This document shows positions 24,522 to 51,449 of a stretch of 64,000 bases of DNA, piece by piece (positions within the stretch are counted from its first letter, which is position 1; each line of letters starts with the position of its first letter). The notes under the pieces are model-generated. The model was not told the origin of the DNA. It saw only the letters and a program-made list of their open reading frames with translations, and did not search any database. Source of the stretch: a bacterium (GTDB lineage Bacteria; Patescibacteriota; Minisyncoccia; UBA6257; GWB1-50-10). The stretch covers positions 5,347-69,346 of the forward strand of contig JAKAGX010000001.1 in the NCBI GenBank assembly GCA_021825465.1. Direction: 5' to 3'. Made by a program: the position numbers and the translations under genes.

Positions 24522-26303
24522 CTAAGCCACCTCCTTCTGGTAGCATTCCTCGCAATACACGATCTCGGAGCGATCGGGCGAATAGGTCGTCTCGAATTCG
24601 TTCGGACAATGCTCCGCGCCGTGGACATGGGATGCGGTATTGCGGTAGACGCCGTTCACGCTCGCCGATCCTCCGCACTGGCACTTTCCTTTCCAAAGCT
24701 TCAACGGATTTCTCTGGCTCAAGCGCTCGTAGTGCCGGCAATTCGAACAAAGGTGCGGCAGAGGCAGGTTGAATTTTCGGTAGAAGCCCAACTCGGCGGG
24801 GGTCACTTTGAAAGCCGTCGCACATTGATCGTTGCATTTCCCGCCGTGAGCGCAGCTTATGACCTCATTCAAGATCGAATCTTTTACTTCCGCTATCGTA
24901 TCGGGCAAATCATCCGATCTCAAGGTCACGGTGTATTGCTTTTCGGACGATTCGCGCCATTTATATCCCAGTTTCATCGCCTCATCGTGACTCAAGGGGT
25001 GAAGCTCGGCCGCCACCGTCTCGTTGTACGAGAAAGGTGATATTTCCGAGGGGAAAAATTCGCCATAGCCGTACTTCCTGCCGCCTTTGTCCATATACGG
25101 CATATCATCCATATGTTTCCGTATTTGCGGAATGAGCTTTTCATACTCCTCTTTTTCATATTGTTTGTTCAAGATGCAGTACTGCTTATTCCTCAATCCT
25201 ACGCATCCGAAGAGGTTCGACGAATCGTGGCAATTATATGAATAAAGCGTGTCGCGGCAAGAGCGCACGAAGCGCGAATAATAAATCCCGCTTCCCGGAT
25301 AAACAGTCGACGAGTCTACCACCCGTTCGGTGTTCAAACCCGAATGGTCGCAATCGAAGCAATCTTTCACTTCGGAATAAATAAGCCAAAGGTAACTTGA
25401 ATCTTCCGCTCCGCCGAATACGCTGAACGAGCGACGGCAATTTTTAGCGCCTTCGAGGTCGTCTCCGCTCGAATTGACGCTTCGGATGACCTTCGCGAAT
25501 CTCCTGGGATATTTCAACGATTCGCTCCGGAATCGTTCTTTCATTTTTGAAAGCGACCGGTACCCCCGGGGCATCAATTCCTTGACCTTTTCCTCGTACT
25601 CATCTTTCGAATATTCCTTGTTGAAAATGCAATACGACTTGTTGTTCAAATTCGTGCACCCGAAACAATGGTGGCAGTTGCGGCAGTTGAACAAAAACGC
25701 GCTGTCGTAGCAACCTTCGCAATATCTGCTCCACAACAACCGACTGGAAGAAATGCAATCGACGGTCTCGTAATTGAATTCGCTTTTTGAAATCCAATAG
25801 CAATCCATGCATTCTTTGCAATTGAAGATGAAAGCGGAGTACAGCGAGTTTTCATTGAAATCCCCGCCGATCACGAGATAGCAATCCTTATTGCCTTCGG
25901 TGATGCTGCAGTATTCGCTCCGCACGCCTCGCTGGTTCATAAGCGCCACATCCGGAACCTCTTGCCAGAGATCGCGCAGCTGCTCAAAGAAGTTTCGGGA
26001 AAAATTGTAATTCCTGCCGTACACCATCGGATCCCATGAATCTCCCCACCAGAACGCTTGATCGTAAATACGCTGCGGATTGTCCGGGGAAAAAAGCGAG
26101 AGGATCGTTTCGTTGTGCCCCGGCGCATCGCACGTTTTCCAATAAAGGATGCGCTCGTTCCGGAAGGTCATTCTCCGCTCGAGCCGGCAATCCGGACAAA
26201 AGGTCGGCGGAGGAACTTGCATCTTTTCATAAAAAGCGAAATCCTCGGCATAAACCATGAATTCCTTTTTGCAGTTTTGGCATTGCCGAATTTCCGAAGT
26301 CAT
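24522..26303 (-). CDS. Cys-rich zinc-ribbon repeat protein, array paralog 1 of 13 (3'-most; uncharacterised family)
   Basis: The 593 aa ORF starts with the N-terminal 'CQNCKKEF ... FYEKMQVPPPTFCPDCR'. It has duplicated 'LNNKSYCIFNKEYSKDEYE' and 'LRNKQYCILNKQYEKEEYEKL' modules. The C-terminus reads 'FYRKFNLPLPHLCSNCRHYERL ... CPNEFETTYSPDRSEIVYCEECYQKEVA'. There is no signal peptide. Confidence 0.85.
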   Translation of the reverse strand: MTSEIRQCQNCKKEFMVYAEDFAFYEKMQVPPPTFCPDCRLERRMTFRNERILYWKTCDAPGHNETILSLFSPDNPQRIYDQAFWWGDSWDPMVYGRNYNFSRNFFEQLRDLWQEVPDVALMNQRGVRSEYCSITEGNKDCYLVIGGDFNENSLYSAFIFNCKECMDCYWISKSEFNYETVDCISSSRLLWSRYCEGCYDSAFLFNCRNCHHCFGCTNLNNKSYCIFNKEYSKDEYEEKVKELMPRGYRSLSKMKERFRSESLKYPRRFAKVIRSVNSSGDDLEGAKNCRRSFSVFGGAEDSSYLWLIYSEVKDCFDCDHSGLNTERVVDSSTVYPGSGIYYSRFVRSCRDTLYSYNCHDSSNLFGCVGLRNKQYCILNKQYEKEEYEKLIPQIRKHMDDMPYMDKGGRKYGYGEFFPSEISPFSYNETVAAELHPLSHDEAMKLGYKWRESSEKQYTVTLRSDDLPDTIAEVKDSILNEVISCAHGGKCNDQCATAFKVTPAELGFYRKFNLPLPHLCSNCRHYERLSQRNPLKLWKGKCQCGGSASVNGVYRNTASHVHGAEHCPNEFETTYSPDRSEIVYCEECYQKEVA

Positions 26304-26312
26304 ATGTTTATT

Positions 26313-28055
26313 TTACACCACCTCCGCGTTATAGCACTCTTCGCAGTAGACCGTTTCTGGCCGCTCGGGAGCGAATGCCGTCTCGAACTCGTTCGGGCAT
26401 TTCCCCCTGCCGTGGAAGTGGGTCGATGTATCGCACATGCAGGAGCGATGCCAAAGCCTGAGGGGCGTCCCCTGCTTCAGACGCTCGTAGTGCCGGCAGT
26501 TCGGGCAGAGATGCGGAAGCGGCAAATCCATCCTCCTCAAGAACTGCAACTCCGGAGCGATGATCCTGAACGCGCCTGTGCATTGCTCGCCGCACTTCCC
26601 TCCGTGAGGGCATTCGATGGTCTGATCCAGAATGTCGTCTTTTACGCCCTCAATATCATCGGGTAATTTGTCCGCTTTCACCGAAATCGCATAATCCTTT
26701 GCCGTTTCATTTCTCCAGGGATACTTCTCTTCCGCCGCTTGTTCCGCCGTCAGCGGGAAATACTCCTCAGCGATCGTCTCGTTGTACGCGAAGGGAGAGA
26801 TCTCGATCGGGAAGAACTCGCCGTATTTATATATTCTCCCCTTCTCGTCCGTATACGGCATCTCGCCCATCTGTTTCTTGATCTTCGGGAGAAGCGCTTC
26901 GTATTCCTCTTTCGAGTACTGCTTGTTCAGAATACAAAAATCTTTTTTCCTCACTCCGACGCACCCGAAAAGGTTGGATCCTCCCCGACAGTAATCCGAA
27001 TACTCTACGTTCACGATGTTTTCGTAGGTATTGGAGGAAAAGAAATTGCGGGAATCGTGATAAGCGACATTGACCCCCTCATAGCTCAGCTCCCCGCCGT
27101 CTCCCGCGCCGTGGAGATCCATGCAGTCCTTGATCTTCAGCGCCTGCGTGCAATACCGCAGGTTTTCGCATTCATCGATGTTGAACGACTTGAAAATATT
27201 CTTGGAATTGATGATGTGGTTGCCGCTCACGTTCACAACCTTACTCGTGAACGCAAACCTTTGGATGGAGCGTTTCTTTAATTCGATAAATTCGCTCTTA
27301 AGCGACTCAATAACCCTTGCACTTCCTAATCCCATTTCCCGCATCTTCCTTTCGTACTCCTCCTTGGTCAGCTGTTCGCCTCGGAATACATAGGACTTGT
27401 TTCTCAAATTGGATCCCATGAAACAGCTCTTGCATCCCGCGCAGTTGTACAGAAAATAAGAATCCATGCAGTCGCGGCAATTTTGCAGATAAGCGGAGTG
27501 GACCGCGTGATTGGTGTCCATGGATTCATAGCAGAACTCGGAATCCGTAACGACGTTCGAATCGAAAACGTCGCGATCGTGGAATGCCTTGTGGCTATAG
27601 GCGATATTCTCGGAATAGAAGGTCGATGGTGCCATGTAAACGTCCTTCGAGAGCCATGTGAAATTCGAATACGGTGCGTTCTGATTTTGAAGGCTCTCCA
27701 AGGCCAGACGGGGAACTTCCGCTAAAAGTTTTCGGAATTGTTCAAAGAACGGCTTCGAAAAATCGTACTCGCGGCCGTACGACATGACATCCCACGTATC
27801 CGAGAACCAACAATCATAGCAGTAAACTTTGAACGGCCTCTCTCCGGAATACATCGAGATGATGGATTTGCCGCAAAGATCGCACGTATCCTTGTACAAA
27901 CTGCGCTCGTTCCGAAACGACATCCGCCGCTGCCGCCGGCATTCCGGGCACCAGGTTGGCGGAGGAACGTTGATCCGTTCGTAGAAACTAAAATCCCCAG
28001 GCTCAACGACGAACTCCTTCTTGCAGTTTTGACAGATCTTTGTTTCAGCGTTCAT
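26313..28055 (-). CDS. Cys-rich zinc-ribbon repeat protein, array paralog 2
   Basis: The 580 aa ORF has the same architecture. Its start overlaps the stop of paralog 3 in an ATGA arrangement. Confidence 0.85.
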   Translation of the reverse strand: MNAETKICQNCKKEFVVEPGDFSFYERINVPPPTWCPECRRQRRMSFRNERSLYKDTCDLCGKSIISMYSGERPFKVYCYDCWFSDTWDVMSYGREYDFSKPFFEQFRKLLAEVPRLALESLQNQNAPYSNFTWLSKDVYMAPSTFYSENIAYSHKAFHDRDVFDSNVVTDSEFCYESMDTNHAVHSAYLQNCRDCMDSYFLYNCAGCKSCFMGSNLRNKSYVFRGEQLTKEEYERKMREMGLGSARVIESLKSEFIELKKRSIQRFAFTSKVVNVSGNHIINSKNIFKSFNIDECENLRYCTQALKIKDCMDLHGAGDGGELSYEGVNVAYHDSRNFFSSNTYENIVNVEYSDYCRGGSNLFGCVGVRKKDFCILNKQYSKEEYEALLPKIKKQMGEMPYTDEKGRIYKYGEFFPIEISPFAYNETIAEEYFPLTAEQAAEEKYPWRNETAKDYAISVKADKLPDDIEGVKDDILDQTIECPHGGKCGEQCTGAFRIIAPELQFLRRMDLPLPHLCPNCRHYERLKQGTPLRLWHRSCMCDTSTHFHGRGKCPNEFETAFAPERPETVYCEECYNAEVV

Positions 28056-29863
28056 ACAACTTCACTGTTATAGCAGGATTCGCAGTACACGATCTCTTTT
28101 CTCTCCGGCGCATACGGCGTCTCAAATTCACTCGGGCAACGATCGTTACCGTGAGTATGCTTGGAGAGGTTGGTATAAATGCCATTCTCTGATCTTTCGC
28201 CGACACATTGACACCGACGATGCCAGAGCTTGAGCGGCTTCCGCTGCTCTAAACGCTTAGCATGGCGACAGCTGAAGCAGAGGTGCGGCAATGGCAACCC
28301 CATCCGCCGGTAGAATGAGAGTTCCTGCGGGATGATCCTGAACGCCGCTGTGCACTGCTCGTTGCACTCCCCCCGGTGCGCACATTCGATGATCTCATCC
28401 ACGATCGAATCCTTCGCGTCATCTATGCTGTCGGGTGTATCGGCCTCCTTCATCGTCACCTGGTATTTTTTTTCTTCCGGCTCTTTCCACTTGAATCCGC
28501 GGCTCAGAGCGTCACTTTCATTCAACGGAAAATATTCTTGTGCGATCGTCTCATTGTAGACGAAGGGGCTAAGTTCCGGCGGGAAGAACTCGCCGTATTT
28601 ATAGATCCTCTCTTTCGAGTCAACATAGGGCATCTCGTTCATCTGCTCAACGATCCGGGGAATCAACTCTTCATATTCTTCTTTCGAGTACTGCTTGTTC
28701 AAAATGCAGTATTGTTTGTTCCGGAGACCCGCACACCCGAAGAGATTCGAGGAATCATAGCAGTTCTCCGAATAGGCCACATTGGCGTTGTTCCAGCTCA
28801 CATACGCAAATTTAGTGGAGGAATTAATGGCTCCGCCGATGATCTCATAAGAGAAAAACAAATTCCCTCCCACTTGCATGCAATCATAGTCGTTCTCGGC
28901 ATTCCATCCGCAAATGGTCAAATATTTGCCGTGTGAAGCCCCCACCCCTCCGCCGAATTCCGCGGAACTCGACGATCCGATGAAAAAACACATCCTCAGG
29001 TCATTGGAATTCTCAATGTCGTTCCCCGTCACGTTCTCGGATTTTGTGATGTGAGCGAATTTCATCGGCTGTGAGAGGATAAATGCCTTGAATTTTCCTT
29101 TGTATTCCTCAAGGATCTTGTACGATTTTAAATCGACTTCCGAGAATCTCCTTTCATATTCCTCCTTGGTGAGCTGCTCGTTGAACCAGCAGTATTGTTT
29201 GTTCCGAAGGCCCGCACACCCGAAGCAGTTCGAACATCCCCGGCAGTCATAAAGGAACCATGAGTTGAGACAATTGTCGCAATAGCGGCCGAAAGCAACG
29301 TGATATGATTTTGTGCTGTCCAGGAGTTCATAGCACTTTTCGCTTTCGTTTATGAAAAAGGTATCCACGCTGTCCTTGCTGTAGAGAGCGGTATTGGTAT
29401 ACATGACGTCTTCGCTGTTGTATCCGCCGATCTCCATATAGCAATTCTTGTGATTACTGACATTGTTGCAGTACTCGCTCCCGACGGAGTTCCGGTTCAT
29501 CATACTGATGCGCGGCACTTTGAGCATCAAATCGTGAAACTGCTCGAAGAAGGGCCTGGAAAAATCGTAATCCCGCCCGAAATCCATCGGATTCCAGCCG
29601 TCGGACCACCAAAATTTCGCATCATAGACCGTGAACGGCGAATTGTTCGGATAGAGGGAAATGATGTCCTCCGCATGCCCCGGGGCGCCACACTTTCGTT
29701 TGTAGAGCATCTTTTCGTTCCGCCACGTCATTCTTCTCATTGACCGGCATTCCGGGCACCACGTGGGCGGTGGGACCTGTATCCTCTCGTAGAATGCGAA
29801 ATCCTCCGGATCAATCACGAATTCCTCTTTGCAGTTTTGGCAGGTTCTGGTTTCTTGTTTCAT
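28052..29863 (-). CDS. Cys-rich zinc-ribbon repeat protein, array paralog 3
   Basis: The 603 aa ORF has the same architecture. It has ATGA overlaps with both neighbours. Confidence 0.85.
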   Translation of the reverse strand: MKQETRTCQNCKEEFVIDPEDFAFYERIQVPPPTWCPECRSMRRMTWRNEKMLYKRKCGAPGHAEDIISLYPNNSPFTVYDAKFWWSDGWNPMDFGRDYDFSRPFFEQFHDLMLKVPRISMMNRNSVGSEYCNNVSNHKNCYMEIGGYNSEDVMYTNTALYSKDSVDTFFINESEKCYELLDSTKSYHVAFGRYCDNCLNSWFLYDCRGCSNCFGCAGLRNKQYCWFNEQLTKEEYERRFSEVDLKSYKILEEYKGKFKAFILSQPMKFAHITKSENVTGNDIENSNDLRMCFFIGSSSSAEFGGGVGASHGKYLTICGWNAENDYDCMQVGGNLFFSYEIIGGAINSSTKFAYVSWNNANVAYSENCYDSSNLFGCAGLRNKQYCILNKQYSKEEYEELIPRIVEQMNEMPYVDSKERIYKYGEFFPPELSPFVYNETIAQEYFPLNESDALSRGFKWKEPEEKKYQVTMKEADTPDSIDDAKDSIVDEIIECAHRGECNEQCTAAFRIIPQELSFYRRMGLPLPHLCFSCRHAKRLEQRKPLKLWHRRCQCVGERSENGIYTNLSKHTHGNDRCPSEFETPYAPERKEIVYCESCYNSEVV

Positions 29864-31581
29864 ACAATCTCTGCATTAAAACACTGCTCGCAATAGATGA
29901 CTTCTTTTCTCTCCGGCGCGTACGAGGTTTCGAACTCGTTAGAGCATCTTCCCTCTCCGTGGAAATGGGTTTTCTTGTCGCACATGCACGAGCGATGGTA
30001 GAGCTTCGGGGGGTTGACGCTCCGAAACCGCTCCCCGTGGCGGCACTCAAAGCACTTGCGGGGCAGGGCCGCATTTATCTTTTTCAAAAAATCGTATTCT
30101 TTCCCAATGATCTGGTACGGCTTACCACACGAGGAACACTCAATGATTTCTCTCGTAATTGAGTCCGGCGTTTCCTTGATATCATCCGGCAGCTCGCCCG
30201 CTTTCTTGGTAATCGTGTGGCGCGGAGCATCCGCCTCGCGCCATGCAAAACCGCTCTCGGATGCTCTTTCCCTCGTGAGCGGGAAATAATCGTTCGCCAC
30301 CGTCTCGTTGTAGGCAAAAGGTGAAAGCTCAGTCGGAAAAAATTCACCGTAGCCGTACGTTCTCCCTCTCCCGTCCACGTACGGTACTTTCCCCATCTGC
30401 TCGATGATCTTCGGAATTAATGTTTTGTACTCTTCTTTGGAATACTGCTTGTTCAGGACGCAGTATTCCCGATTCCGGAGACCGATGCAACCGAAGAGAT
30501 TACTCGAGCCGTGACAATTCAAAGCATAACGGGCATCATTGGTACCGTAGACCGATCCCACAAAGTATTGTCGAGACGCCTCGACGCCGGAATCGAAGCC
30601 CTCATAGAGCAGCTCGCAATTTCCCCCCACGCCATAGCCGTCGTACGTATCAGTGGCAGAAAGGGCATTGGTGAGATATTTGCAGTCCTTCACGTTGCCG
30701 TACGAATCAAAACAAAAGCGCGAATCGGCGACATTATACAGCCGGTCGCCGGTCACATTGTTACAACTCACGAATGTCGCGTATTTCCTGATGGCGCCGA
30801 GCTTAAGGACCTCGAATTTTTTCTTCGTCTCCTCAAGCTGCCGGAAACTTCCCAAGTCGATCGCCGCCACTCTTTTCCCGTACTCCTCCCTGCTCAACTG
30901 CTCATTGAAGAAGCAGTAGGACTTATTCCGCAAATTCGTACACCCGAAGCAATCCGTGCATCCCTTGCAACCGAAGAGGAACCAAGAATCGGCGCAACCT
31001 TCCGATTCGGAGGAAAAGTGGACGTTAAACAGTTTGCTGCTCCCGACATCATATGAACACAGGCTGCAATTATTGATCGCAAAGGCGTCAACGATATCTT
31101 TTGACGCGTTGCAACGGGAGGCATAGCACACATTTTCGCCGTCCCACGATGCCGAGACGAGGTACGCATCTTTATACTCGCCGACATAATTCACATAACT
31201 GGAGTTCACTGTCCGCGCATTGAAGACCGCCGGCATCGGCACTTTCTTCAGAAGCTCCGCGAACTGCCCGAAGAATGGCCTCGAAAAATCATAGTCAGCA
31301 CCGAAAGCGAGCGGATCCCATGCGTCGCTCCACCAATAATCCCGATCGTATACCGTTATGCCCGAATCGGGCGCAAAACAGGAGATAACCGCCTTCCCCG
31401 TCGCCGCACATTTATTCCTGAAGAGCGTCCGTTCGTTCCGCCAGGCAAACCGACGCTGCATCCGGCATTCCGGGCACCAGGTTGGCGGTGGGACCTGTAT
31501 CCTCTCGTAGAATGCGAAATCCTCCGGTTCGATCGTGAACTCCTTCTTGCAGTTCTGGCACCGTCGCGTTTCCGAGGTCAT
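29860..31581 (-). CDS. Cys-rich zinc-ribbon repeat protein, array paralog 4
   Basis: The 573 aa ORF has the same N- and C-terminal signatures. It is preceded by the 114 nt structured intergenic element. Confidence 0.85.
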   Translation of the reverse strand: MTSETRRCQNCKKEFTIEPEDFAFYERIQVPPPTWCPECRMQRRFAWRNERTLFRNKCAATGKAVISCFAPDSGITVYDRDYWWSDAWDPLAFGADYDFSRPFFGQFAELLKKVPMPAVFNARTVNSSYVNYVGEYKDAYLVSASWDGENVCYASRCNASKDIVDAFAINNCSLCSYDVGSSKLFNVHFSSESEGCADSWFLFGCKGCTDCFGCTNLRNKSYCFFNEQLSREEYGKRVAAIDLGSFRQLEETKKKFEVLKLGAIRKYATFVSCNNVTGDRLYNVADSRFCFDSYGNVKDCKYLTNALSATDTYDGYGVGGNCELLYEGFDSGVEASRQYFVGSVYGTNDARYALNCHGSSNLFGCIGLRNREYCVLNKQYSKEEYKTLIPKIIEQMGKVPYVDGRGRTYGYGEFFPTELSPFAYNETVANDYFPLTRERASESGFAWREADAPRHTITKKAGELPDDIKETPDSITREIIECSSCGKPYQIIGKEYDFLKKINAALPRKCFECRHGERFRSVNPPKLYHRSCMCDKKTHFHGEGRCSNEFETSYAPERKEVIYCEQCFNAEIV

Positions 31582-31689: not shown

Positions 31690-31695
31690 GAACTC

Positions 31696-36977: not shown

Positions 36978-36995
36978 TACTATATACCAAATATC

Positions 36996-43921: not shown

Positions 43922-44549
43922 TCTTCAGCTCCGACAGACTATTTACCGTTTTCCAAGCAGTCTTTTCGAGTTCCTCCGAATCAGGTGATTTAAGAGCAAT
44001 GCCCCGCATTGTTTCAAAAAGACTTATATCATTCACGCTGTCGCCCACAGCAATACACTCCTCAGGTCTCAAATCCCGCTCATCGCAGAATTTCTCGAAC
44101 TGTTCCAGCTTCTTGACAGCTTGGTTTTTGAAATATTCGAAGTCAACCAACTTTCCATCTTTATCCCAAACGAGCGTAGCATTTGCGAAATAGCAATCAA
44201 TACCCAACTTCCTCGCCACGATCTCCGCAAAGAGGTCCGTGGAGCCAGTGATGAGACACGGCACAATCTTTCTCTCCTCCAAGCAACCGATGATTTCCTT
44301 CGCACCATCCGCAAGAGGAATATCGTCGTATAAAGATGTAAAGAATTCTTTATTATCCTTTTCTGTCCTTGCCCACATATCGAGCAGTTTGTGCTTTGAA
44401 TCTTCATAATCATCGCCGTCCCCATCCAGCATGTCGCGGTAAAACTGGCGGTGATCATCAACAGACGCGCCCATGGCCTCTGTGATCGCGATCCACGAAT
44501 TCCCCTTCACGAGCGTCCCGTCAATGTCAAAGATAACCGCTTTTATCAT
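43911..44549 (-). CDS. HAD-family hydrolase (phosphoserine-phosphatase-like)
   Basis: It has HAD motif I 'VIFDIDGTL' and motif IV 'AVGDSVNDISL'. The start was moved to the internal Met. It forms an ATGA overlap with the stop of paralog 10. Confidence 0.7.
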   Translation of the reverse strand: MIKAVIFDIDGTLVKGNSWIAITEAMGASVDDHRQFYRDMLDGDGDDYEDSKHKLLDMWARTEKDNKEFFTSLYDDIPLADGAKEIIGCLEERKIVPCLITGSTDLFAEIVARKLGIDCYFANATLVWDKDGKLVDFEYFKNQAVKKLEQFEKFCDERDLRPEECIAVGDSVNDISLFETMRGIALKSPDSEELEKTAWKTVNSLSELKTIL

Positions 44550-46246
44550 AAAACAATAGATTGATAGCACTTGTTGCAATAAACGATCGAGGCCTCCTTC
44601 TCGGGATACCGCGAAACGAACTGGATGCCGCACTTCGAGCAGGTGCGCGGATGCCGAGCCATATTTCCGAGCCACAGTTTGAATTTCTCATTGACGCGGC
44701 AGAAGGGACATTCACGGGGCAGCGGCAGGTCCATGTGGCGCAGGAACGAGAGTTCCGCAGGAATCAGTTTGAATCCCCGTCCGCATTTCGAGCAACCGAT
44801 AACCTCATTCAAAATACCATCCTTCGCATCCCGGATGTGGTCAGGCAGATCGGCGGCCGGAATCGTCGTTTGAAATTCACTCTTCGGCAGATTGCGCCAC
44901 TCATACCCCCTTTCTGCGGCTTTTTCTCTCGAGAGCGGGACAAAACAGTTGGCATCCGATTCGTTGTAGGCGTTCGGCGAAAGCTCGACGGGAAAAAACT
45001 CGCCATACCGGTATTCCCGCCCCTTCTTGTCCCGGTAAACATTCGCGTCCATATCCTTTTTGATCCGCTCGGCCAGTTTTTTATACTCTTCCTTCGGATA
45101 TTTCTTGTTCAAGATGCAATACTCCGCCTTCTTCATCCCGGCACAGCCGAAACAATGGGAACTCGAGGTAAGCGTTTTGCAGTATTCCAAATCTTCTCCC
45201 TTCATAACCTCCTGGCTGAATCTGATGTTCGAACTTTGATTGCCGACAACCGAAGCGTCATACGAAAGAGAAAGGTTTTCTCCCCAATAGGTTATGTCGT
45301 AGCTGTCCGCTATGCCGTCGGATACCATGCTCACGTACCGGCAGTTCTCGCCGTCATTCACCTGGAACGAATCTTTGACGTTCTTGGAATCATAAATGTG
45401 CGCTCCCCAGCAATCGACGTTCCGGTCGCCGAATTCCGCTTTCGGAATCTGCGTCGCCCAAAACGCTTCGGCTTCATGGAGCGCTCTTTGGTATCCCTCG
45501 TACGACCCCAGATCGTATTTCGCGATCTCTTTTTGATATTCTTCTTTCGAGTATTGCTTGTTCTTGATGCAATATTTCTTGTTCTTGACGCTCGCACACA
45601 TACGGCAATCCTGGCAATTCGAAGCATCTTTCATGAAAGCGCAGTTCAAGAGTTCCACGGCGTAGTTCCGGAGGCCGATCCCGCGATTGCATCTCCATGC
45701 ATGCATCGAATCATAGAGCCATTCCGAATTGAGGCAGAGAGTGCAATCCCAAACGGATTTATCATGTTCCACATAAAACCCGTATGCGGAGTCCTCGACG
45801 TAATTCGCCTGGTAGAGAAGATAGCAATTTTTGAGATTCGCGGCATTGCTCGTATAGGGGGAATCCTTCGATGTCTGGATGTCGACGGATAACCCCAAAA
45901 GCGGCACTTTGTGCATCAAGTCGTCGAACTGTTCAAGAAACGGCCGAGAAGGATCATATTCCCTCCCCTCCGCATACTGGTCCCATCCGTCACCCCACCA
46001 GCATTCGGGACAATAAACAACATAGGGCGCATCGGGCGCATACACCGAGATCACGTTTTTCTTGCAAAGATCGCACCTCCGTTTGAAGAGATTGAAGGTA
46101 TTGAACCATGCGAGCCGCCTTTCGAGCCGACACTCGGGGCAAAAGGTCGGCGGCGGGACTTGGATTCGCTCATAGAACGAGAAATCCTCGGGTTCGATGG
46201 TGAACTCCTTTTTGCAGTTTTGGCAGGTTTTGATTTCAGTATTCAT
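44546..46246 (-). CDS. Cys-rich zinc-ribbon repeat protein, array paralog 10 (C-terminal variant subfamily)
   Basis: The 566 aa ORF has the canonical N-terminus. Its C-terminus differs, 'CPFCRVNEKFKLW ... CSKCGIQF ... YCNKCYQSIVL', and is shared with paralog 13. Confidence 0.85.
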   Translation of the reverse strand: MNTEIKTCQNCKKEFTIEPEDFSFYERIQVPPPTFCPECRLERRLAWFNTFNLFKRRCDLCKKNVISVYAPDAPYVVYCPECWWGDGWDQYAEGREYDPSRPFLEQFDDLMHKVPLLGLSVDIQTSKDSPYTSNAANLKNCYLLYQANYVEDSAYGFYVEHDKSVWDCTLCLNSEWLYDSMHAWRCNRGIGLRNYAVELLNCAFMKDASNCQDCRMCASVKNKKYCIKNKQYSKEEYQKEIAKYDLGSYEGYQRALHEAEAFWATQIPKAEFGDRNVDCWGAHIYDSKNVKDSFQVNDGENCRYVSMVSDGIADSYDITYWGENLSLSYDASVVGNQSSNIRFSQEVMKGEDLEYCKTLTSSSHCFGCAGMKKAEYCILNKKYPKEEYKKLAERIKKDMDANVYRDKKGREYRYGEFFPVELSPNAYNESDANCFVPLSREKAAERGYEWRNLPKSEFQTTIPAADLPDHIRDAKDGILNEVIGCSKCGRGFKLIPAELSFLRHMDLPLPRECPFCRVNEKFKLWLGNMARHPRTCSKCGIQFVSRYPEKEASIVYCNKCYQSIVL

Positions 46247-47988
46247 GCCACTTCGCTGTTATAGCACTGTTCGCAGTACACGATCTCGGGGCGATCCGGC
46301 GCATACGAGGTTTCGAATTCATTCGAACATCTCCCCTCCGGATGATGCGTATGTTCTCCGGAATTTTTATATATCTTGTAATCACACATGCACTGTCGCG
46401 CATAGAGCTGGACCTTGTTCCTTTGCGATATTCGAGCCGCATGACGGCAGTCCACGCATGTCCTCGGCAACGGGATCCCTTCGGCGCGCAGAAAGTCGAG
46501 TTCCGGACGGATGATCCGGTAGGCGCGCTTGCACCTCTCGCATGAAATGATCTTCGAAAGAATATCATCTTGAACGTCGCGGATGGAATCGGGAAGCTCG
46601 GACGCATTCATACTCGTTTCGTATTCCTTGCTTTCCGGATCATCCCACGCGTATCCTTTCGCGAGCGCTTCTTCTTTGGTAAGCGGAAAGTGATCAAATA
46701 CTAACGAGGAGTTGTAGCCGAAGGGGGCGTGCTCGATCGGGAAGAATTCGCCGTAGCGATAGATAATTCCCTCCGTATTTACATAGGGATCCTCGTCCAT
46801 GTGTTTTCTGATCTTCTGAACCAATGCCTCATACTCCTCCTTTGGATACTGCTTGTTCAGGATGCAGTATTGTTTATTCCTCAAGCCCACGCATCCGAAG
46901 CAGTTCGAGGAATTTTTCATGAACATGCAATATTCAAGATCCGAATTTTCCGGCCAACACTCCACGCAAAATTTAAGGCGGGAAATATCCCCTCCGCAGA
47001 TCGATGTTTCGTAACAAAGATCCGTGTTCTTTCCCCAAATCGAAACATCCATAGAATCTTTGGTGGACGGCTCGTTTAGATCTTGGCAATGACGGAGATC
47101 TTCCCCTCCCCGTATGAGGTAACCGCGGTAAACATTTTTGGAATTGGAGATGTATTCACCGAGAACATTCGCATTGTTCGTCCCGGTCATATATCGTACG
47201 GGAGAACCAAGCCAGAATTTTTTGACTCTATTCTTCATCTCCGACACCGAAGTCCATTTATCCAAGCGGAGCCGATCGATTCTCTTCTGATACTCTTTTT
47301 TGGACAATTTCTCGTTAAAGAAGCAATAGCTTTGATTCCTTAAATTGACACACCCGAAGCAATTGATGCATCCCCGGCAGTTCCGGGAGAACCAAACGCC
47401 GGTGCAATCCTCGCACTGGGAGGAAAAATGGGTCTGATGGCAAGACGTATGCCAGAAGGATTCATAGCACCGCTCGCATTTTTTCACGTGGGAGCTTTCA
47501 AAACAGTCCCTCGAGAAATCCACTTGGTTGCCATAGGCGCAGTTTTCCGCTCCCGAACAGTTGAAGACCAGGTAGCAATCCTTCGACCAGCCGATATTCG
47601 CGGTAAAATCCGAGCGCACATTCGACTCCGTAGATCGTGGTACCCGCGGCACGGCCTGCGCAAGTTCATATATCTGTTCAAAAAAGGTCTTATGTTCGTC
47701 GATATCTCTGCCATACTGGAGAGCGTCCCAGTCATCTTCACGCCATTCATCTTCGTCATACAGGGTTACTTTAGACCCTTTAGAGTAGAGAGCGAGGATC
47801 CGCTTGCCTGATTTAACGCTCGTATTCCAAAAAATCTTCCGCTCGTTGCGATACGCAAGCCGCCGCTGGAATCGACACAGCGGGCACCATGTCGGCGGCG
47901 GGACTTGGATTCGCTCATAGAACGAGAAATCCTCCGGTTCGATGGCAAATTCCTCATGGCAATTCTGGCAGGTATGGGTTTCAGACAT
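46243..47988 (-). CDS. Cys-rich zinc-ribbon repeat protein, array paralog 11
   Basis: The 581 aa ORF has the canonical ends. It has an ATGA overlap with paralog 10. Confidence 0.85.
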   Translation of the reverse strand: MSETHTCQNCHEEFAIEPEDFSFYERIQVPPPTWCPLCRFQRRLAYRNERKIFWNTSVKSGKRILALYSKGSKVTLYDEDEWREDDWDALQYGRDIDEHKTFFEQIYELAQAVPRVPRSTESNVRSDFTANIGWSKDCYLVFNCSGAENCAYGNQVDFSRDCFESSHVKKCERCYESFWHTSCHQTHFSSQCEDCTGVWFSRNCRGCINCFGCVNLRNQSYCFFNEKLSKKEYQKRIDRLRLDKWTSVSEMKNRVKKFWLGSPVRYMTGTNNANVLGEYISNSKNVYRGYLIRGGEDLRHCQDLNEPSTKDSMDVSIWGKNTDLCYETSICGGDISRLKFCVECWPENSDLEYCMFMKNSSNCFGCVGLRNKQYCILNKQYPKEEYEALVQKIRKHMDEDPYVNTEGIIYRYGEFFPIEHAPFGYNSSLVFDHFPLTKEEALAKGYAWDDPESKEYETSMNASELPDSIRDVQDDILSKIISCERCKRAYRIIRPELDFLRAEGIPLPRTCVDCRHAARISQRNKVQLYARQCMCDYKIYKNSGEHTHHPEGRCSNEFETSYAPDRPEIVYCEQCYNSEVA

Positions 47989-48012: not shown

Positions 48013-49713
48013 TCATACTATCTCCTTCTGATAACATCCTTCACAATAAATGATCTCCTTGTTTTCCGGAGAAAAACTCGTCTCGAACTCGTTCGGGCAC
48101 CGGCCGGAATGATCATGTCCGGTTTTATCGCACATGCAATTGCGGTGCCATGTCTTGTTCGGCCCGCGCGCCGCGAACCGCCGTTCGTGCCGGCAATCCG
48201 GGCACTCGCGCGGGAGCGGGATCTCCAGGTGTTTGTAAAACTCGAATTCGCTCGGGATGATGCGGAAATTTTTCTTGCATTTCGTGCACGCGAAGATCTC
48301 TTTCGGCACGTCGATACCTCCGATGTCGCGGATCGAATCGGGTATCTTGTCCCACGGCATCGTTTCCTTGCCGTAGGTCCCCCGCGGATGGTCCTCCCAC
48401 TTGAATCCCTGCCGTAGCGCTTCTTCTTTCGTGAGCGGAAACTGGCCCTCTGCGGCCGTCTCGTTGTATCCGAAGGCACTGACGGATGCCGGGAAGAATT
48501 CGCCGTAGATCCCCTCCTCCCTCATTTTCGCGATGATCTCCTTCCGCAATGTTCCGTACTCTTCGGGCGAATATTGCTTATTCAGGATGCAGTAATTCTG
48601 CTTTCGGAGACCCGTGCACCCGAAGCAGTTCGTGCAGTTGAAGCAGTAGAAAGAATAGTCCATGAAACTCGACGACCAGCAGACGGCGGTGGCAACATAA
48701 TGCGAGACGTCGATGCCGGCATTGATCGAATTGTAGACCAGCTCCGCGCTTCTGCCCGCCGTGTCGGCATCGACGCAATCTTTCGCGTTCCGCCAGATAT
48801 GGACGCCGTATTTACTGTCCTCGGAATCGTAGCAGTGGAAGCATGACTTGCAATTCTTCGCGTCTTCGATGTAGTTCCCCGAAGAGCCGGGCGAGTTGTA
48901 GACTTGAGCGAACCGGCGCGGCTCCCCCATCGCGAAATCCTCGAATTTCTTTTTGAATGCCTCGAGGCCGCTCCACGTATCGAACTGCGCTTCTTCGAGG
49001 AACTTTTCGTAATCTTCTTTCGAAACCGGCTTGTTGAAAATGTGGTACTGCTTATTGAACAGATTGACGCAACCCACGCAATTCGAGCAGCCGCGGCAAT
49101 CAAGGAGAAAATACCCGTCGTGCGAATCGTGGCATCCTTTGCTCCAAAACAAACGATACGAGTTGTAGCAGTCGTCGCTCTCGTACGAAAGTTCCGTCTT
49201 GCTCGCGAAGGACGTATCGACGCAATCCTTGCACTCTTGGATCCAGTAGCAGTGGGTACATCCCTCGTTGTTCGACGACTCCACGAGCATATAGCAATTC
49301 TTGTTGTCGGCCGATATGTTCACATACTCGGAGTTGACGCTCCGCTCGTGCATCAGACCGACCTTCGGCACTTTGTTCCAAAGTTCGGCGAACTGATTTA
49401 AGAACGGCTTTGCGGGGTCGTACTCAATACCGAGATCGCGACCATCCCAGCCGTCGGAAAACCAGCAATCGTGGCACCACACCGCGTACGGTTTATTCGG
49501 ACTGTACATCGAGATGCCATCCTTGCCGCATTTGTCGCACTTCCGGGAATAGAACGAGCGTTCATTTCTGAACGCCAATCTTCTTTGTGCGCGGCACGCC
49601 GGGCACAGCCTGGGCGAAAGAACGCCCATCTTTTCGTAAAAACCAAAATCCTCCGGTTCGATGGCAAATTCCTCATGGCAATTCTGACAAGTTCTGGTTT
49701 CGGTTTTAGTCAT
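48013..49713 (-). CDS. Cys-rich zinc-ribbon repeat protein, array paralog 12
   Basis: The 566 aa ORF has the canonical ends. Confidence 0.85.
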   Translation of the reverse strand: MTKTETRTCQNCHEEFAIEPEDFGFYEKMGVLSPRLCPACRAQRRLAFRNERSFYSRKCDKCGKDGISMYSPNKPYAVWCHDCWFSDGWDGRDLGIEYDPAKPFLNQFAELWNKVPKVGLMHERSVNSEYVNISADNKNCYMLVESSNNEGCTHCYWIQECKDCVDTSFASKTELSYESDDCYNSYRLFWSKGCHDSHDGYFLLDCRGCSNCVGCVNLFNKQYHIFNKPVSKEDYEKFLEEAQFDTWSGLEAFKKKFEDFAMGEPRRFAQVYNSPGSSGNYIEDAKNCKSCFHCYDSEDSKYGVHIWRNAKDCVDADTAGRSAELVYNSINAGIDVSHYVATAVCWSSSFMDYSFYCFNCTNCFGCTGLRKQNYCILNKQYSPEEYGTLRKEIIAKMREEGIYGEFFPASVSAFGYNETAAEGQFPLTKEEALRQGFKWEDHPRGTYGKETMPWDKIPDSIRDIGGIDVPKEIFACTKCKKNFRIIPSEFEFYKHLEIPLPRECPDCRHERRFAARGPNKTWHRNCMCDKTGHDHSGRCPNEFETSFSPENKEIIYCEGCYQKEIV

Positions 49714-49742
49714 TGGGTCATTCGTATATTGAAAATTGATAT

Positions 49743-51449
49743 CTATGCCGTCAATTCACTGTAGCATTTCTTGCAAAGGATGTTTTGGGCATCGTGATTA
49801 CTGATCGATGTCATAAATTCGGCCCCACACTTCGAACACGCTCTCTTTTCCATCTTCAAGTTATCGACCCATATATCGATCTTCTTATTGATCCTGCAAA
49901 AAGGACATTCGCGGGGCAACGGATAATTCATCTTCCGAAGGAACTCCAATTCATCCCTTGTTATTCTGAACCCCCGGCCGCATCGAGCGCAACCGATGAT
50001 CTCGCTTAAAATTGAATCCGGCGCATCCTTGATATGATCCGGCAGATCGGCGGCTTTTTTCGTCACCTCGTATTCTTTTTTTTCAAAAGCACGCCATCCG
50101 TAGCCTTCGTCGCGCGCATCGCGCTCGGTCATCGGAAAAAAATTTTGAGCCAACGTCTCGTTATATGCGAACGTGCTCATTTCGATCGGGAAGAATTCCC
50201 CATATCGATACACCCTGCCCTTCCGATCGGTGTACGGCATGTCCATCATATGTTGGCGTATTTTCGGAACGAGAGCATCGTATTCCTCGGGGGTATATTG
50301 CTTGTTTAAAATGCAATACTGCCCCTTTTTAAGGGAAATGGATCCGAAGACATGTGCCCCGCCGTAAATGAGAAATGAATATTCGGAGTCGACCAAATTC
50401 AATCCCGACCCATAATTGAATTTCACTTCGCTCGCGTTTTCACCGACATTCGGCGAATCGTAGGAAAGCGTGAGATTATTTCCCCAGCTTGTAATGTCGT
50501 AGCAATCTTTCGTTCCCGGAAGGTAGAGCATCGCGAGATACTTTGAATTTTCTGCGCCCAAAACTTCGTAGCATTCCTTGCAATTCCGCGATTGGAACAC
50601 GTTGTTCCCCGTGCAGTTTTCGGTAAATTCATCGAAGACCGGCTTCGGCGGGAACTTTTTCCAATGCTCTTCGGCAAGCTTCTGGATCTCTTGATACTCG
50701 CGATACGACCCGAGGTCCCATCTTTTGATCTCTTTGAAATATTCTTCTTTTGAATACGGCTTGTTGAAAATATAGTATTTTTTATTCCTTAAATTGACCG
50801 AAGCGAAACAATTTTGGCATCCCCACGAATATTTCAAGAAGTATGAATCGATCGACTCCGTTACTTGCCCTCGAAGGCCGGCACATCGGGTGCATCGGTA
50901 TGTATGCATCGAATCGTAGCAAAGCTCCGAATTCATGATGAGCGATGAGTCGAAGACCGACCTGCTCTCTGTGACGTAAAAGCCGTACGCGGAATCCTCG
51001 TCGAAATCGGCGTGAAAGAGCATATAGACATTCTTGTTATTGCCGCTCAAGTGTGAATACGGCGAGGTCTTCAGGGTCATAAAATCCGTCGAGAGCGCCG
51101 GAAGCGGGGCTTCGCGCACAAGGTCCTTGAATTGTTCGAAGAAGGGCCGCGAAAAATCGTAATCGCGGCCGTAATCGCGGGGATCCCACGTATCACTGAA
51201 CCAGCAAGGCAAACAAAAAACCCGGTAGGGTGCGTCAGGCGCGTAAACAGAAATAGTATCCTTGCTGCACAAGTCGCACTTCCGCTTATAGAGGTTGATG
51301 ACATTCATAAACGCCAAGCGCCGCTTTTCGCGGCACTCGGGACAAAACGTCGGCGGAGGGACTTTTATCCTCTCATAAAAAGCGAGATCCTCAGGCTCAA
51401 TGACAAATTCGCGGCGGCAGTTCTGGCAAACTTCTTTCCGGGGACCCAT
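49743..51449 (-). CDS. Cys-rich zinc-ribbon repeat protein, array paralog 13 (5'-most; C-terminal variant subfamily)
   Basis: The 568 aa ORF has the canonical N-terminus and the variant C-terminus 'CPFCRINKKIDIW ... CSKCGAEF ... CKKCYSELTA'. Confidence 0.85.
   Translation of the reverse strand: MGPRKEVCQNCRREFVIEPEDLAFYERIKVPPPTFCPECREKRRLAFMNVINLYKRKCDLCSKDTISVYAPDAPYRVFCLPCWFSDTWDPRDYGRDYDFSRPFFEQFKDLVREAPLPALSTDFMTLKTSPYSHLSGNNKNVYMLFHADFDEDSAYGFYVTESRSVFDSSLIMNSELCYDSMHTYRCTRCAGLRGQVTESIDSYFLKYSWGCQNCFASVNLRNKKYYIFNKPYSKEEYFKEIKRWDLGSYREYQEIQKLAEEHWKKFPPKPVFDEFTENCTGNNVFQSRNCKECYEVLGAENSKYLAMLYLPGTKDCYDITSWGNNLTLSYDSPNVGENASEVKFNYGSGLNLVDSEYSFLIYGGAHVFGSISLKKGQYCILNKQYTPEEYDALVPKIRQHMMDMPYTDRKGRVYRYGEFFPIEMSTFAYNETLAQNFFPMTERDARDEGYGWRAFEKKEYEVTKKAADLPDHIKDAPDSILSEIIGCARCGRGFRITRDELEFLRKMNYPLPRECPFCRINKKIDIWVDNLKMEKRACSKCGAEFMTSISNHDAQNILCKKCYSELTA

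What the first reader, a model, noticed from the sequence alone, without database searches (positions are those of the whole stretch)
24522..51449. Array members fall into subfamilies: two share a distinct C-terminus and one is degenerate
Paralogs 10 (44546..46246) and 13 (49743..51449) share the canonical N-terminus. Their last 55 aa or so are replaced by a different Cys module, 'CPFCR-(V/I)-N-x-K ... CSKCG-x-x-F ... C-x-KCY', not 'CPNCRH ... CPNEFETSY ... YCEECY'. They are not adjacent, since 11 and 12 lie between them. This argues against a single recent duplication. Paralog 7 (35316..36977) has a degenerate N-terminal ribbon, 'CKTCRKEF ... PQECHVC', and a truncated C-terminus but keeps both 'YCILNKQYS' modules. 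It may be a decaying or neofunctionalised copy.
Basis: seen in the sequence. Interest (0 to 1): 0.55.

Follow-up and report, generated by a model that had tools for sequence, protein, structure and literature searches.

The report
Old subfamilies in zinc-protein gene array
Thirteen neighbouring genes in a tiny-genome (Patescibacteria) bacterium encode old, separately conserved versions of one undescribed zinc-rich protein, and the two 'odd-ended' copies and the 'degenerate' copy are each normal members of widespread subfamilies, not swapped or decaying genes.

Summary
Thirteen intact paralogues (553-603 aa) lie on the minus strand. par10 and par13 share the ending CPFCR...C.KCG..F...C.KCY, and par7 differs at both ends.

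- par10 and par13 are sisters along their whole length, at 50% identity. NJ bootstrap is 100 without the C-terminus and 100 with the C-terminus alone.
- Their ending lines up position for position with the family's terminal zinc ribbon. The other window copies carry an extra CxC...HxH insertion.
- More than 100 proteins in other Patescibacteria lineages have the same ending, so it is neither a frameshift nor a module swap.
- par10 and par13 each have their own orthologues elsewhere, so their duplication is old.
- par7 is not decaying. It belongs to the best conserved subfamily, found in 406 species genomes and once per locus. Its dN/dS is 0.055 and its special features are conserved.

All 13 copies have closer relatives in other genomes than in their own. 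The family has about 2,400 clusters at 50% identity. It has no Pfam, NCBIfam, PDB or literature match I could find. Its genes sit next to T4CP/VirD4-like ATPase genes, or between grpE and dnaK. Its function is unknown.

The parts
49743..51449 (-). par13. Member of subfamily X, main clade. Plain C-x2-C...C-x2-C terminal ribbon preceded by CPFCR-INxKF-type linker; tail at nt 49746-49907.
   Evidence: The L003 orthologue is 92% identical, with dN/dS 0.053. AF2 model pLDDT 89.4.
44546..46246 (-). par10. Member of subfamily X, small sub-clade X10 (8 sequences). Tail at nt 44549-44710.
   Evidence: X10 is monophyletic without par13 in 100/100 bootstraps (core and residues 1-470). The L003 orthologue is 83% identical, with dN/dS 0.052.
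35316..36977 (-). par7. Member of subfamily Y, the most conserved and single-copy subfamily. The N-terminal 4-Cys ribbon is kept and followed by WK.L.AFWVFGKFRKT.SALSGK. All four Cys of the second treble clef are lost (CPETKWRF...HPDRR). Plain terminal ribbon. The likely true start is the ATG two codons downstream (551 aa, P0241).
24522..26303 (-). par1. Long-tail type with the CAHGGKC..QC insertion in the second treble clef; zinc site 2 absent.
   Evidence: Orthologue in L003 at 78%.
26313..28055 (-). par2. Long-tail type, all zinc sites present. Used for the structure model (pLDDT 88.3).
28052..29863 (-). par3. Long-tail type. Its start overlaps the par4 stop by 4 nt.
29860..31581 (-). par4. 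Long-tail type with a plain CxxC second treble clef.
31696..33462 (-). par5. A separate conserved subfamily that has also lost the four Cys of the second treble clef (CEASGKPY...LSPLERH). Its orthologues share this loss.
33529..35313 (-). par6. Long-tail type.
36996..38759 (-). par8. Long-tail type.
40757..42448 (-). par9. Long-tail type; zinc site 2 present.
46243..47988 (-). par11. Long-tail type. Its 5' end shares exact tracts of 41 and 44 bp with its two neighbours, par12 and par10.
48013..49713 (-). par12. Long-tail type; zinc site 2 present.
52033..53487 (-). T4CP/VirD4-like P-loop ATPase just upstream of the array. The same cluster is present in 45 of 80 related loci.
   Evidence: Pfam TrwB_AAD_bind 30.9 bits (cut-off 20.5) and T4SS-DNA_transf 24.1 bits (cut-off 20.1)..
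54040..55467 (-). DUF8128 membrane protein, the recurrent partner of the ATPase. Both match one 824-position phage profile.
   Evidence: PF26449; phrog_5156.
16827..18551 (-). Second T4CP/VirD4-like ATPase, about 6 kb beyond the other end of the array.
   Evidence: TrwB_AAD_bind 56 bits.
38821..44549 (.). Unrelated genes interrupting the array: a 147-aa ORF (38821-39264, -), an MFS transporter (39332-40585, -), a 410-aa ORF of unknown family on the opposite strand (42689-43921, +) and a HAD hydrolase (43911-44549, -). par9 lies among them.

Best explanation
**What the genes are.** The 13 genes belong to a large, undescribed protein family that all named hits place in Patescibacteria (Parcubacteria/Paceibacteria lineages).

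**Protein layout.** Each protein is about 550-600 aa, acidic and without a signal peptide. In order it has:
- an N-terminal four-cysteine ribbon of the treble-clef type;
- an optional second CxxC...CxxC ribbon;
- a conserved WWSD.WDP..YG.DYDFS.PFFEQF block;
- two cysteine-rich beta-solenoid modules, each ending in ...LRNK.YCI(L/F)N..YSKEEY plus a helix;
- a second treble clef;
- a terminal zinc ribbon.

**The array is old (shown).** Each copy has closer relatives in other genomes than in its own. The copies are kept by strong purifying selection, while array size and gene order change quickly between genomes. This is birth-and-death evolution of specialised paralogues.

**par10 and par13 (shown).** They belong to one old subfamily (X) that differs from the rest over the whole protein. 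Their ending is the plain CxxC...CxxC form of the family's terminal ribbon. The other window copies, apart from par7, carry an extra CxC...HxH insertion in the first knuckle.

**par7 (shown).** It belongs to subfamily Y, the most conserved one, with one copy per locus. Y lost all four cysteines of the second treble clef together and keeps everything else.

**Zinc sites (shown).** Whole zinc sites are present or absent as units in different subfamilies. That pattern fits specialisation rather than decay.

**Function (inferred, low confidence, about 0.3).** The proteins are cytoplasmic, zinc-stabilised binding or adaptor proteins. They would work with the T4CP/VirD4-like ATPase plus DUF8128 membrane module encoded beside the arrays, as its clients or its adaptors. 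Different subfamilies would supply different specificities. Subfamily Y would be the common core partner.
For: - **Coordinates and sequences:**
- **Pairwise identity:** par10-par13 is 50% overall, 47% in the core and 64% at the N-terminus, against 29-44% between either of them and any other copy. No pair exceeds 50%.
- **NJ trees of 346 sequences:** par10+par13 form an exclusive clade in 100/100 bootstraps for residues 1-470, 100/100 for the core, 100/100 for the C-terminus alone and 70/100 for the N-terminus. X10 excludes par13 in 100/100. Clade Y (97 sequences) is monophyletic in 100/100.
- **Age of the copies:** every paralogue has 7-98 non-window sequences closer than its nearest co-resident paralogue.
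- **Spread of the variant ending:** it occurs in more than 100 proteins of about 567-568 aa from Niyogi-, Lipton-, Giovannoni-, Brennerbacteria and others.
- **Tail colinearity:**
  - Other subfamilies have CAKCG..I.TSYAPDRPEIVYCE.CY or CMKEGC.NEFETSY tails.
  - Profile-profile alignment of X against Y runs end to end.
  - The tail is 54 aa in par7, par10 and par13.
- **par7 orthologues:** 52-80% identical, about 550 aa, with the same special motifs. They are found in 406 of 185,579 species genomes, once per locus. In at least L015, L020, L048 and L074 the par7-type gene is the only member within 10 kb either side.
- **Selection:** dN/dS is 0.055, 0.052 and 0.053 for par7, par10 and par13.
- **Zinc sites as units:**
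- **Structure:** AF2 pLDDT 88.3 and 89.4 with the same C-terminal topology.
- **Neighbourhood:**
  - 62 T4CP-like genes in 45/80 loci, 35 of them directly next to a family gene.
  - Two T4CP-like genes flank the window's array.
  - DUF8128 and the ATPase both match one phage profile.
  - Patescibacteria carry about two VirD4-like genes per genome, almost none near virB4 (PMC12102498).
Against: - The trees are neighbour-joining on corrected distances, not maximum likelihood, and they are unrooted. The order in which the tail forms arose is therefore inferred by parsimony only.
- The sequence sample is biased. It consists of the best 120 hits of three searches plus loci chosen through par7-type genes.
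- dS against L003 is close to saturation (0.8-1.9), so dN/dS values are approximate.
- Short identical DNA tracts show that some exchange between copies may occur at the 5' ends. This could blur N-terminal trees.
- The functional part rests on gene neighbourhood alone.
  - The grpE-F7-dnaK arrangement could be one inherited arrangement rather than a functional link.
  - The proteins are acidic, and folded zinc domains are not typical type IV substrates.
  - No expression or interaction data exist.
Confidence: 0.85

Rival explanations
1. **Module swap.** par10 and par13 have canonical bodies. They acquired a foreign C-terminal cysteine module by recombination or gene conversion, either between each other or from outside.
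For: The endings look different by eye, and the N-termini look canonical. Short identical DNA tracts show that some exchange between copies is possible.
Against: - par10 and par13 group together with bootstrap 100 when the C-terminus is excluded.
- They share many core motifs.
- The tail has the same length as, and lines up position for position with, the tails of subfamily Y and of many other subfamilies.
- The identical DNA tracts are at the 5' ends or mid-gene, never in the tail, and no exact tract of 20 bp or more joins par10 with par13.
Confidence: 0.03
2. **Decay.** par7 is a decaying or recently neofunctionalised copy of a canonical paralogue.
For: It is the most divergent copy in the window, at 29-36% identity. 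It lacks the RR...RNER motif and the cysteines of the second treble clef.
Against: - The ORF is intact.
- dN/dS is 0.055 against the orthologue in L003.
- 120 listed orthologues of about 550 aa at 50-80% identity share the same features.
- It is present in 406 species genomes and is often the only family member at its locus.
Confidence: 0.02
3. **Artefact.** The variant endings are frameshift or assembly artefacts.
For: None beyond the different sequence.
Against: The same ending is found in two independent assemblies of this organism (L001, L002), in the closest species genome (L003) and in more than 100 other proteins. The model of par13 is confident through the tail, with pLDDT 86-93.
Confidence: 0.01
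4. **Concerted evolution.** Short-tract gene conversion between neighbouring copies homogenises parts of the genes, chiefly the 5' zinc-ribbon region. This acts on top of the old subfamily structure and complements the main explanation rather than replacing it.
For: - Exact tracts of 44, 44 and 41 bp join the physically adjacent pairs par3/par4, par10/par11 and par11/par12 at nt 22-101 of the genes. The genes are otherwise 63-73% identical.
- A 35-bp tract, with 23- and 20-bp tracts nearby, joins par5 and par11.
- Runs of identical codons at identical residues give p = 0.0016, 0.004 and 0.02.
- Bootstrap support for X drops to 70 in the N-terminal tree.
Against: None of the p-values survives correction for 78 pairs (threshold 0.00064). 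The tracts lie in the most conserved residues, and codon bias is strong: 47% identical codons at identical residues.
Confidence: 0.35
5. **Different function.** The proteins are linked to the Hsp70 system or to metal handling rather than to the T4CP-like ATPase. They could be zinc-dependent co-chaperones or holdases, or zinc buffers.
For: grpE is directly followed by the par7-type gene in 29 loci, with dnaK downstream. CutA1 genes sit in or beside arrays in 17 loci. The proteins are 4.6-6.7% cysteine.
Against: - The grpE arrangement is confined to one group of related lineages (Nomurabacteria/Paceibacterota) and may be a single inherited arrangement.
- T4CP-like genes also occur in those same loci.
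- Core cysteines are not conserved between paralogues, which argues against a fixed metal-cluster chemistry.
Confidence: 0.15

Closest known systems
Pfam PF13451 zf_Tbcl / PF23477 zf_Tbcl_2 (probable treble-clef zinc fingers)
   Same: The N-terminal C-x2-C...C-x2-C element with F/Y-rich spacing gives weak matches in 8 and 4 of the 13 copies. A second copy of the same motif lies near the C-terminus.
   Different: The best score (18.6 bits for par1) is below the curated cut-off of 24. The match covers about 40 of about 580 residues. The Pfam families have no assigned function.
NCBIfam TIGR04272 CxxC-x17-CxxC domain
   Same: Zinc site 2 and the plain terminal ribbon have two CxxC pairs about 17-19 residues apart. 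Two copies match at E = 0.003, and one JGI homologue carries that name.
   Different: The matches are weak and partial. The domain is a generic small zinc ribbon of unknown function.
Small-coil beta-solenoids (ryegrass ice-binding protein 3ULT, Tenebrio and spruce budworm antifreeze proteins, left-handed beta-helix acyltransferases)
   Different: Sequence identity is 5-11%, there is no full-length match, and Foldseek finds nothing at E below 5. The resemblance is in shape, not in family.
Variable tandem arrays of VirB2 pilin genes in Patescibacteria (PMC12102498)
   Same: Same phylum. Arrays of 2-11 diverged paralogues (mean 25% identity) linked to type IV secretion components.
   Different: The proteins are unrelated: small secreted pilins against about 580-aa cytoplasmic zinc proteins. 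Those arrays lie near virB4. These lie near orphan T4CP-like genes, and the window has no virB4 among the ORFs scanned.

Membership tests
Subfamily X (par10/par13 type) of the zinc-ribbon/beta-solenoid family | Exclusive clade over the whole protein, independent of the tail | tested here: met
   Bootstrap 100/100 for residues 1-470 and for the core; 100/100 for the tail alone.
Subfamily X (par10/par13 type) of the zinc-ribbon/beta-solenoid family | Tail CP(F)CR-(I/V)..K(F)..W....-C.KCG..F.T.....-C..CY, present in other genomes | tested here: met
   More than 100 homologues of about 567-568 aa carry it.
Subfamily Y (par7 type) | C..C...C..C(I/R)WK.L.AFWVFGKFRKT.SALSGK at the N-terminus; H.D.R in place of the second knuckle; C.FC.K..H.YP.E.GY.KI.C.ECY tail; monophyly | tested here: met
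   invariant columns; 97 sequences monophyletic, 100/100 without the tail and 96/100 for the tail alone.
Subfamily Y (par7 type) | Under purifying selection, i.e. not a pseudogene | tested here: met
   dN/dS 0.055 against L003. The ORF is intact.
Pfam PF13451 zf_Tbcl | Score at or above the gathering cut-off (24 bits) | tested here: not met
   Member 1 scores 18.6 bits. The best E-value among the 13 is 5.5e-4, in 8 of 13 copies.
NCBIfam TIGR04272 CxxC-x17-CxxC | Significant match to the model | tested here: inconclusive
   2 of 13 copies match, best E = 0.0028. The spacing pattern is visible by eye at site 2 and in the plain tails.
Type IV coupling protein (VirD4/TrwB) - the neighbouring ATPases, not the array genes | Nucleotide-binding and all-alpha domains matching TrwB_AAD_bind / T4SS-DNA_transf above cut-off | tested here: met
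   52033-53487: 30.9 and 24.1 bits (cut-offs 20.5 and 20.1). 16827-18551: 56 and 31.8 bits.
Type IV coupling protein (VirD4/TrwB) - the neighbouring ATPases, not the array genes | N-terminal membrane anchor in the same polypeptide, and linkage to virB4 and a T4SS channel | tested here: not met
   The sequence of the 484-aa protein shows no hydrophobic N-terminal segment. The adjacent DUF8128 protein has such segments, and both map to one phage profile. No VirB4 was found among the window ORFs scanned.
Known anti-phage defence systems (PADLOC) | Match of array proteins to any defence model | tested here: not met
   No match for par2, par7 or par13.

The most novel reading that the evidence does not exclude
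The arrays are the variable part of an undescribed Patescibacteria-specific system. In this reading an orphan, split type IV coupling-protein-like motor (DUF8128 membrane protein plus VirD4-like ATPase) handles a repertoire of zinc-ribbon/beta-solenoid proteins. One universal member (the par7 type) would act as the common partner. The diversified members, including the par10/par13 type, would act as interchangeable clients or adaptors, possibly delivered to or acting on host cells. This would explain why Patescibacteria carry thousands of VirD4 homologues far from any virB4.
Probability: 0.25. Interest if true: 0.8.

Novelty: new variant of a known kind. Interest (0 to 1): 0.5.

Why it matters
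As stated, the finding resolves into an ordinary evolutionary pattern: old, specialised paralogues in a reshuffling tandem array. The family behind it is more notable.
- It has about 2,400 clusters at 50% identity.
- In this window it fills about 22.6 kb, a large share of a genome that, for this phylum, is typically around 1 Mb (general knowledge, not measured here).
- It is strongly conserved.
- It gives confident structure models with no solved relative.
- I found no curated family and no mention in the literature searched.

Its repeated placement beside orphan VirD4-like ATPases offers a concrete, testable lead on an open question raised in PMC12102498: what do those ATPases do in Patescibacteria? 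The result also corrects a tempting misreading. The copy that looks 'degenerate' is in fact the conserved core member.

Tried and rejected
**Searches that returned nothing useful**
- Pfam and NCBIfam scans of all 13 copies gave only sub-threshold zinc-ribbon matches.
- PADLOC gave nothing for the family.
- PHROGs gave only one family of unknown function, matching part of par7's first solenoid module.
- tblastn of par7 against phage genomes found no match.
- A PDB sequence-profile search found only chance LIM-domain matches at E = 0.02 or worse.
- Foldseek against PDB found nothing at E below 5.
- The AlphaFold database library was not available.
- Rfam found nothing in the window.
- Literature searches gave no paper on this family: Patescibacteria plus cysteine-rich/tandem/paralogs, CPR protein families plus zinc ribbon, DUF8128, treble clef plus Patescibacteria, and CxxC-x17-CxxC. 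Méheust et al. 2019 does not mention zinc or cysteine.

**A method that failed**
- My first regex classes of tail types were too loose and gave meaningless monophyly tests. I replaced them with clades defined from the tree.

**Ideas rejected**
- Fe-S or other fixed metal clusters in the solenoid core: the core cysteines are not conserved between paralogues.
- General nucleic-acid binding: all copies are acidic, pI 5.4-6.3.
- Long antisense ORFs inside the genes as real genes: they follow from the rarity of TTA/CTA/TCA codons.

Full report
**1. The observation**

The window carries 13 minus-strand ORFs of 553-603 aa at exactly the stated coordinates. A profile built from them finds these 13 and nothing else in all six frames, so there are no fragments or pseudogenes.

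The translations contain the quoted strings.
- par10 ends CPFCRVNEKFKLWLGNMARHPRTCSKCGIQFVSRYPEKEASIVYCNKCYQSIVL.
- par13 ends CPFCRINKKIDIWVDNLKMEKRACSKCGAEFMTSISNHDAQNILCKKCYSELTA.
- Most others end CPNCRH...C.C...H.H...CPNEFET...YCEECY.
- par7 begins ...CKTCRKEF...PQECHVC and ends HPDRR...CFFCSRPIIHYYPPEWGYQKIVCEECYQDRVL.

The array is interrupted by a 147-aa ORF, an MFS transporter, a 410-aa ORF on the opposite strand and a HAD hydrolase.

**2. par10 and par13 are sisters over their whole length, and the split is old**

In the 13-way alignment par10 and par13 are 50% identical overall: 47% in the core, 64% at the N-terminus and 48% at the C-terminus. Each is 29-44% identical to every other copy, and no pair in the array exceeds 50%.

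I aligned 346 family members and built neighbour-joining trees with 100 bootstraps per region. The set held the 13 copies, ORFs from 80 related loci and samples of three database searches.
- par10 and par13 fall in one clade that excludes all other window copies. Support is 100/100 for residues 1-470 (no C-terminus), 100/100 for the core, 100/100 for the C-terminus alone and 70/100 for the N-terminal 95 residues.
- Within that clade, par10 sits in a small sub-clade with its L003 orthologue and P0122-P0127, one of which is named Candidatus Niyogibacteria. This sub-clade excludes par13 in 100/100 replicates.
- par13 sits in the main clade with sequences named Lipton-, Giovannoni- and Brennerbacteria.

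So the two genes are not a recent duplicate pair. They are also not canonical bodies with a grafted end.

**3. The ending is the same ribbon, not a different module**

Searching with par10 returns more than 100 proteins of about 567-568 aa with the same ending. That excludes a frameshift.

Tails across the family show three interchangeable forms of the first knuckle of a terminal zinc ribbon:
- C-x2-C, as in CAKCG..I.TSYAPDRPEIVYCE.CY, found in many otherwise canonical subfamilies;
- C-x4-C, as in CMKEGC.NEFETSY...;
- C-x-C, a variable insertion, H-x-H, three or four residues, then C. This is the form in the window's 'canonical' copies.

From the second knuckle of the preceding treble clef to the stop there are 54 residues in par7, par10 and par13, and 64 in par2. 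A profile-profile alignment of subfamily X against subfamily Y runs end to end, tails included. AF2 models of par2 (pLDDT 88.3) and par13 (pLDDT 89.4) have the same C-terminal topology: helix, hairpin, terminal helix.

The plain CxxC form occurs in X, in Y, in distant par5-type members and in many other lineages. By parsimony it is probably ancestral, and the window's long tails are the elaborated state. This is an inference, because the tree is unrooted.

**4. par7 is the conserved core member, not a decaying copy**

par7 is the most divergent copy in the window, at 29-36% identity. Even so, its orthologues are 52-80% identical and about 550 aa long. They come from Giovannoni-, Sung-, Staskawicz- and other Parcubacteria.

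Its 'odd' features are conserved or invariant in those orthologues:
- the four N-terminal cysteines;
- WK.L.AFWVFGKFRKT.SALSGK;
- H.D.R in place of the second knuckle;
- the C.FC...H.YP...C.ECY tail.

A scan of one genome per species found par7-type genes in 406 genomes. In the 80 loci fetched there is exactly one per locus. With full 10-kb flanks it is the only family member in at least L015, L020, L048 and L074.

Against the closest genome (L003, 89% identity) dN/dS is 0.055. The values for par10 and par13 are 0.052 and 0.053. dS is high, so these are approximate.

**5.

Whole zinc sites are present or absent as units.
- Site 2 (C.LCG...x17-19...YC..CW) is complete in par2, 5, 9, 10, 12 and 13. 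In the others it is replaced, often by C-P/T...D-F/Y.
- The second treble clef has a CAHGGKC..QC insertion in par1, 2, 3, 6 and 8.
- All four cysteines of that treble clef are missing in par7 and, independently, in par5. par5's orthologues share the loss.

Every window copy has between 7 and 98 non-window sequences closer than its nearest co-resident paralogue. All 13 therefore predate divergence from other sampled genomes.

Gene order is not conserved even in the closest genome. L003 reads T4CP, CutA, F13, F1, two unrelated ORFs, F7, F10 and onwards. Non-adjacency of par10 and par13 therefore says little.

**6. Gene conversion**

DNA identity between copies is 63-73% and there are no long tracts. 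Short exact tracts do exist:
- 44 bp between par3 and par4;
- 44 bp between par10 and par11;
- 41 bp between par11 and par12. These first three pairs are physically adjacent, and all three tracts lie at nt 22-101;
- 35 bp, with 23- and 20-bp tracts nearby, between par5 and par11;
- 39 bp between module 1 of par7 and module 2 of par11.

A permutation test on runs of identical codons gives p = 0.0016, 0.004 and 0.02 for the three adjacent pairs. None survives correction for 78 pairs. Micro-conversion at the 5' ends is plausible but unproven, and it does not touch the tails.

**7. What the family is**

- No Pfam or NCBIfam model reaches its cut-off. Only weak zf_Tbcl and CxxC-x17-CxxC matches appear.
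- There is no PADLOC match, and only one PHROG family of unknown function.
- There is no solved relative by sequence or by Foldseek.
- A full HMMER scan of 1.84 billion representatives gives 2,446 clusters at E of 1e-30 or better.
- Source names are 'hypothetical', 'zinc-binding domain-containing' or similar. All informative names are from Patescibacteria.
- The proteins are acidic (pI 5.4-6.3), 4.6-6.7% cysteine, and show no signal peptide by inspection.
- I found no paper describing the family.

**8. Neighbourhood and likely mode of action**

In the 80 loci, all 280 family genes are on the same strand as the par7-type gene. Two settings recur.
- **Setting A**, about 30 loci of Nomurabacteria/Paceibacterota type: IF1-S13-S11-S4-RpoA-L17-L13-S9-GrpE-[par7 type]-(0-4 other members)-PaaX-like regulator (opposite strand)-DnaK-...-T4CP-like ATPase-[member].
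- **Setting B**, as in this window: sigma70-r4/HARE-HTH protein, DUF8128 membrane protein, a small membrane protein, T4CP-like ATPase, then the array, often with CutA1 and a second T4CP-like gene.

Counts for the ATPase link:
- T4CP-like genes number 62 in 45 of 80 loci.
- Of these, 35 lie directly next to a family gene and 53 lie within two genes.
- The window has one at each side of the array, at 52033-53487 and 16827-18551. No virB4 was found among the ORFs scanned.
- DUF8128 and the ATPase map to the two halves of one 824-position phage profile, which suggests one split unit.
- PMC12102498 reports 5,713 VirD4 homologues in 2,918 Patescibacteria genomes, only 148 of them near virB4, and says exaptation cannot be ruled out.
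- At about two per genome of roughly 1 Mb (genome size from general knowledge), a 21.6-kb locus should hold about 0.04. About 0.78 are observed.

I therefore commit, at about 0.3 confidence, to this model: the family proteins work with this ATPase module as clients or adaptors. The Hsp70 or metal-handling reading is the main functional rival.

**9. Verdict**

The subfamilies are real and old. The 'different module' is the family's own ribbon without an insertion. The 'degenerate' copy is the core member.

The evolutionary pattern is ordinary. The family and its link to orphan T4CP-like ATPases are undescribed as far as I could find, and they deserve follow-up.

Noticed in passing
window 52033-56522 and 16827-18551; loci L003-L082: A recurrent module sits beside the arrays: a sigma70-r4/HARE-HTH protein, a DUF8128 membrane protein, a small membrane protein and a T4CP/VirD4-like ATPase. 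A second T4CP-like gene lies beyond the other end of this window's array. T4CP-like genes occur in 45 of 80 loci, and 35 of the 62 are directly next to a family gene. No virB4 was found among the window ORFs scanned.
   Followed up: partly
window 52033-53487 and 54040-55467: Both proteins match a single phage family of unknown function, phrog_5156 (824 positions). DUF8128 matches positions 76-204 and the ATPase matches 387-815. This suggests they are two halves of one unit that is fused in some phages.
   Followed up: no
L042-L044, L048-L051, L053-L055, L057-L059, L062-L071, L076-L078, L080-L082: In Nomurabacteria/Paceibacterota-type genomes the par7-type gene lies directly after grpE, at the end of the S13-S11-S4-rpoA-L17-L13-S9 block. 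dnaK lies a few genes downstream. grpE is immediately followed by a family gene in 29 loci.
   Followed up: partly
window genes par3/par4 (nt 55-98 of each), par10/par11 (nt 58-101 / 55-98), par11/par12 (nt 22-62 / 28-68): Exact DNA tracts of 41-44 bp occur at the 5' ends of physically adjacent paralogues that are otherwise 63-73% identical. This suggests short-tract gene conversion, but it is not significant after multiple-test correction.
   Followed up: partly
window par7 nt 658-696 of the gene vs par11 nt 1105-1143 of the gene: A 39-bp exact match joins the first LRNKQYCILNKQY module of par7 to the second module of par11. These are non-equivalent positions in the two genes. It could be chance with codon bias or an ectopic micro-conversion. 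Module 1 of par7 orthologues varies (ILNQPYS, ILNKPYS, ILNKQYS).
   Followed up: partly
window 36693-38744 (+), 44561-45892 (+) and other antisense ORFs: Very long ORFs (up to 683 aa) run antisense to the paralogues. They follow from the near absence of TTA, CTA and TCA codons in these genes (2-10 per gene in total). They are most likely not genes.
   Followed up: yes
window 42689-43921 (+): A 410-aa ORF lies on the opposite strand inside the array, with no Pfam, PHROG or PADLOC match. The ORF of similar size on the opposite strand next to the par10 orthologue in L003 (427 aa) was not compared with it.
   Followed up: no
window 28052-28055, 29860-29863, 46243-46246, 44546-44549: Four-base start/stop overlaps join par3/par2, par4/par3, par11/par10 and par10/HAD hydrolase. 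This suggests co-transcription and translational coupling within the array.
   Followed up: no
window about 51500-52000; 17 of 80 loci: A CutA1 (divalent-ion tolerance) gene lies between the T4CP-like ATPase and the array here. It recurs inside or beside arrays in other genomes, which may bear on the metal load of these cysteine-rich proteins.
   Followed up: no
window 31696-33462 (par5); L004 8026-9789, L014 363-2129, L039 5169-6863, L005 16079-17791: par5 and its orthologues have lost all four cysteines of the second treble clef, as the par7 subfamily has, but in a separate lineage. The more distant par5-type members have the plain CxxC tail, while the close ones have the CxC...HxH insertion.
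   Followed up: partly
window 12612-14893: The ComEC competence channel appears as two adjacent ORFs, a Competence domain and a metallo-beta-lactamase domain. They lie about 2 kb from the second T4CP-like ATPase.
   Followed up: no
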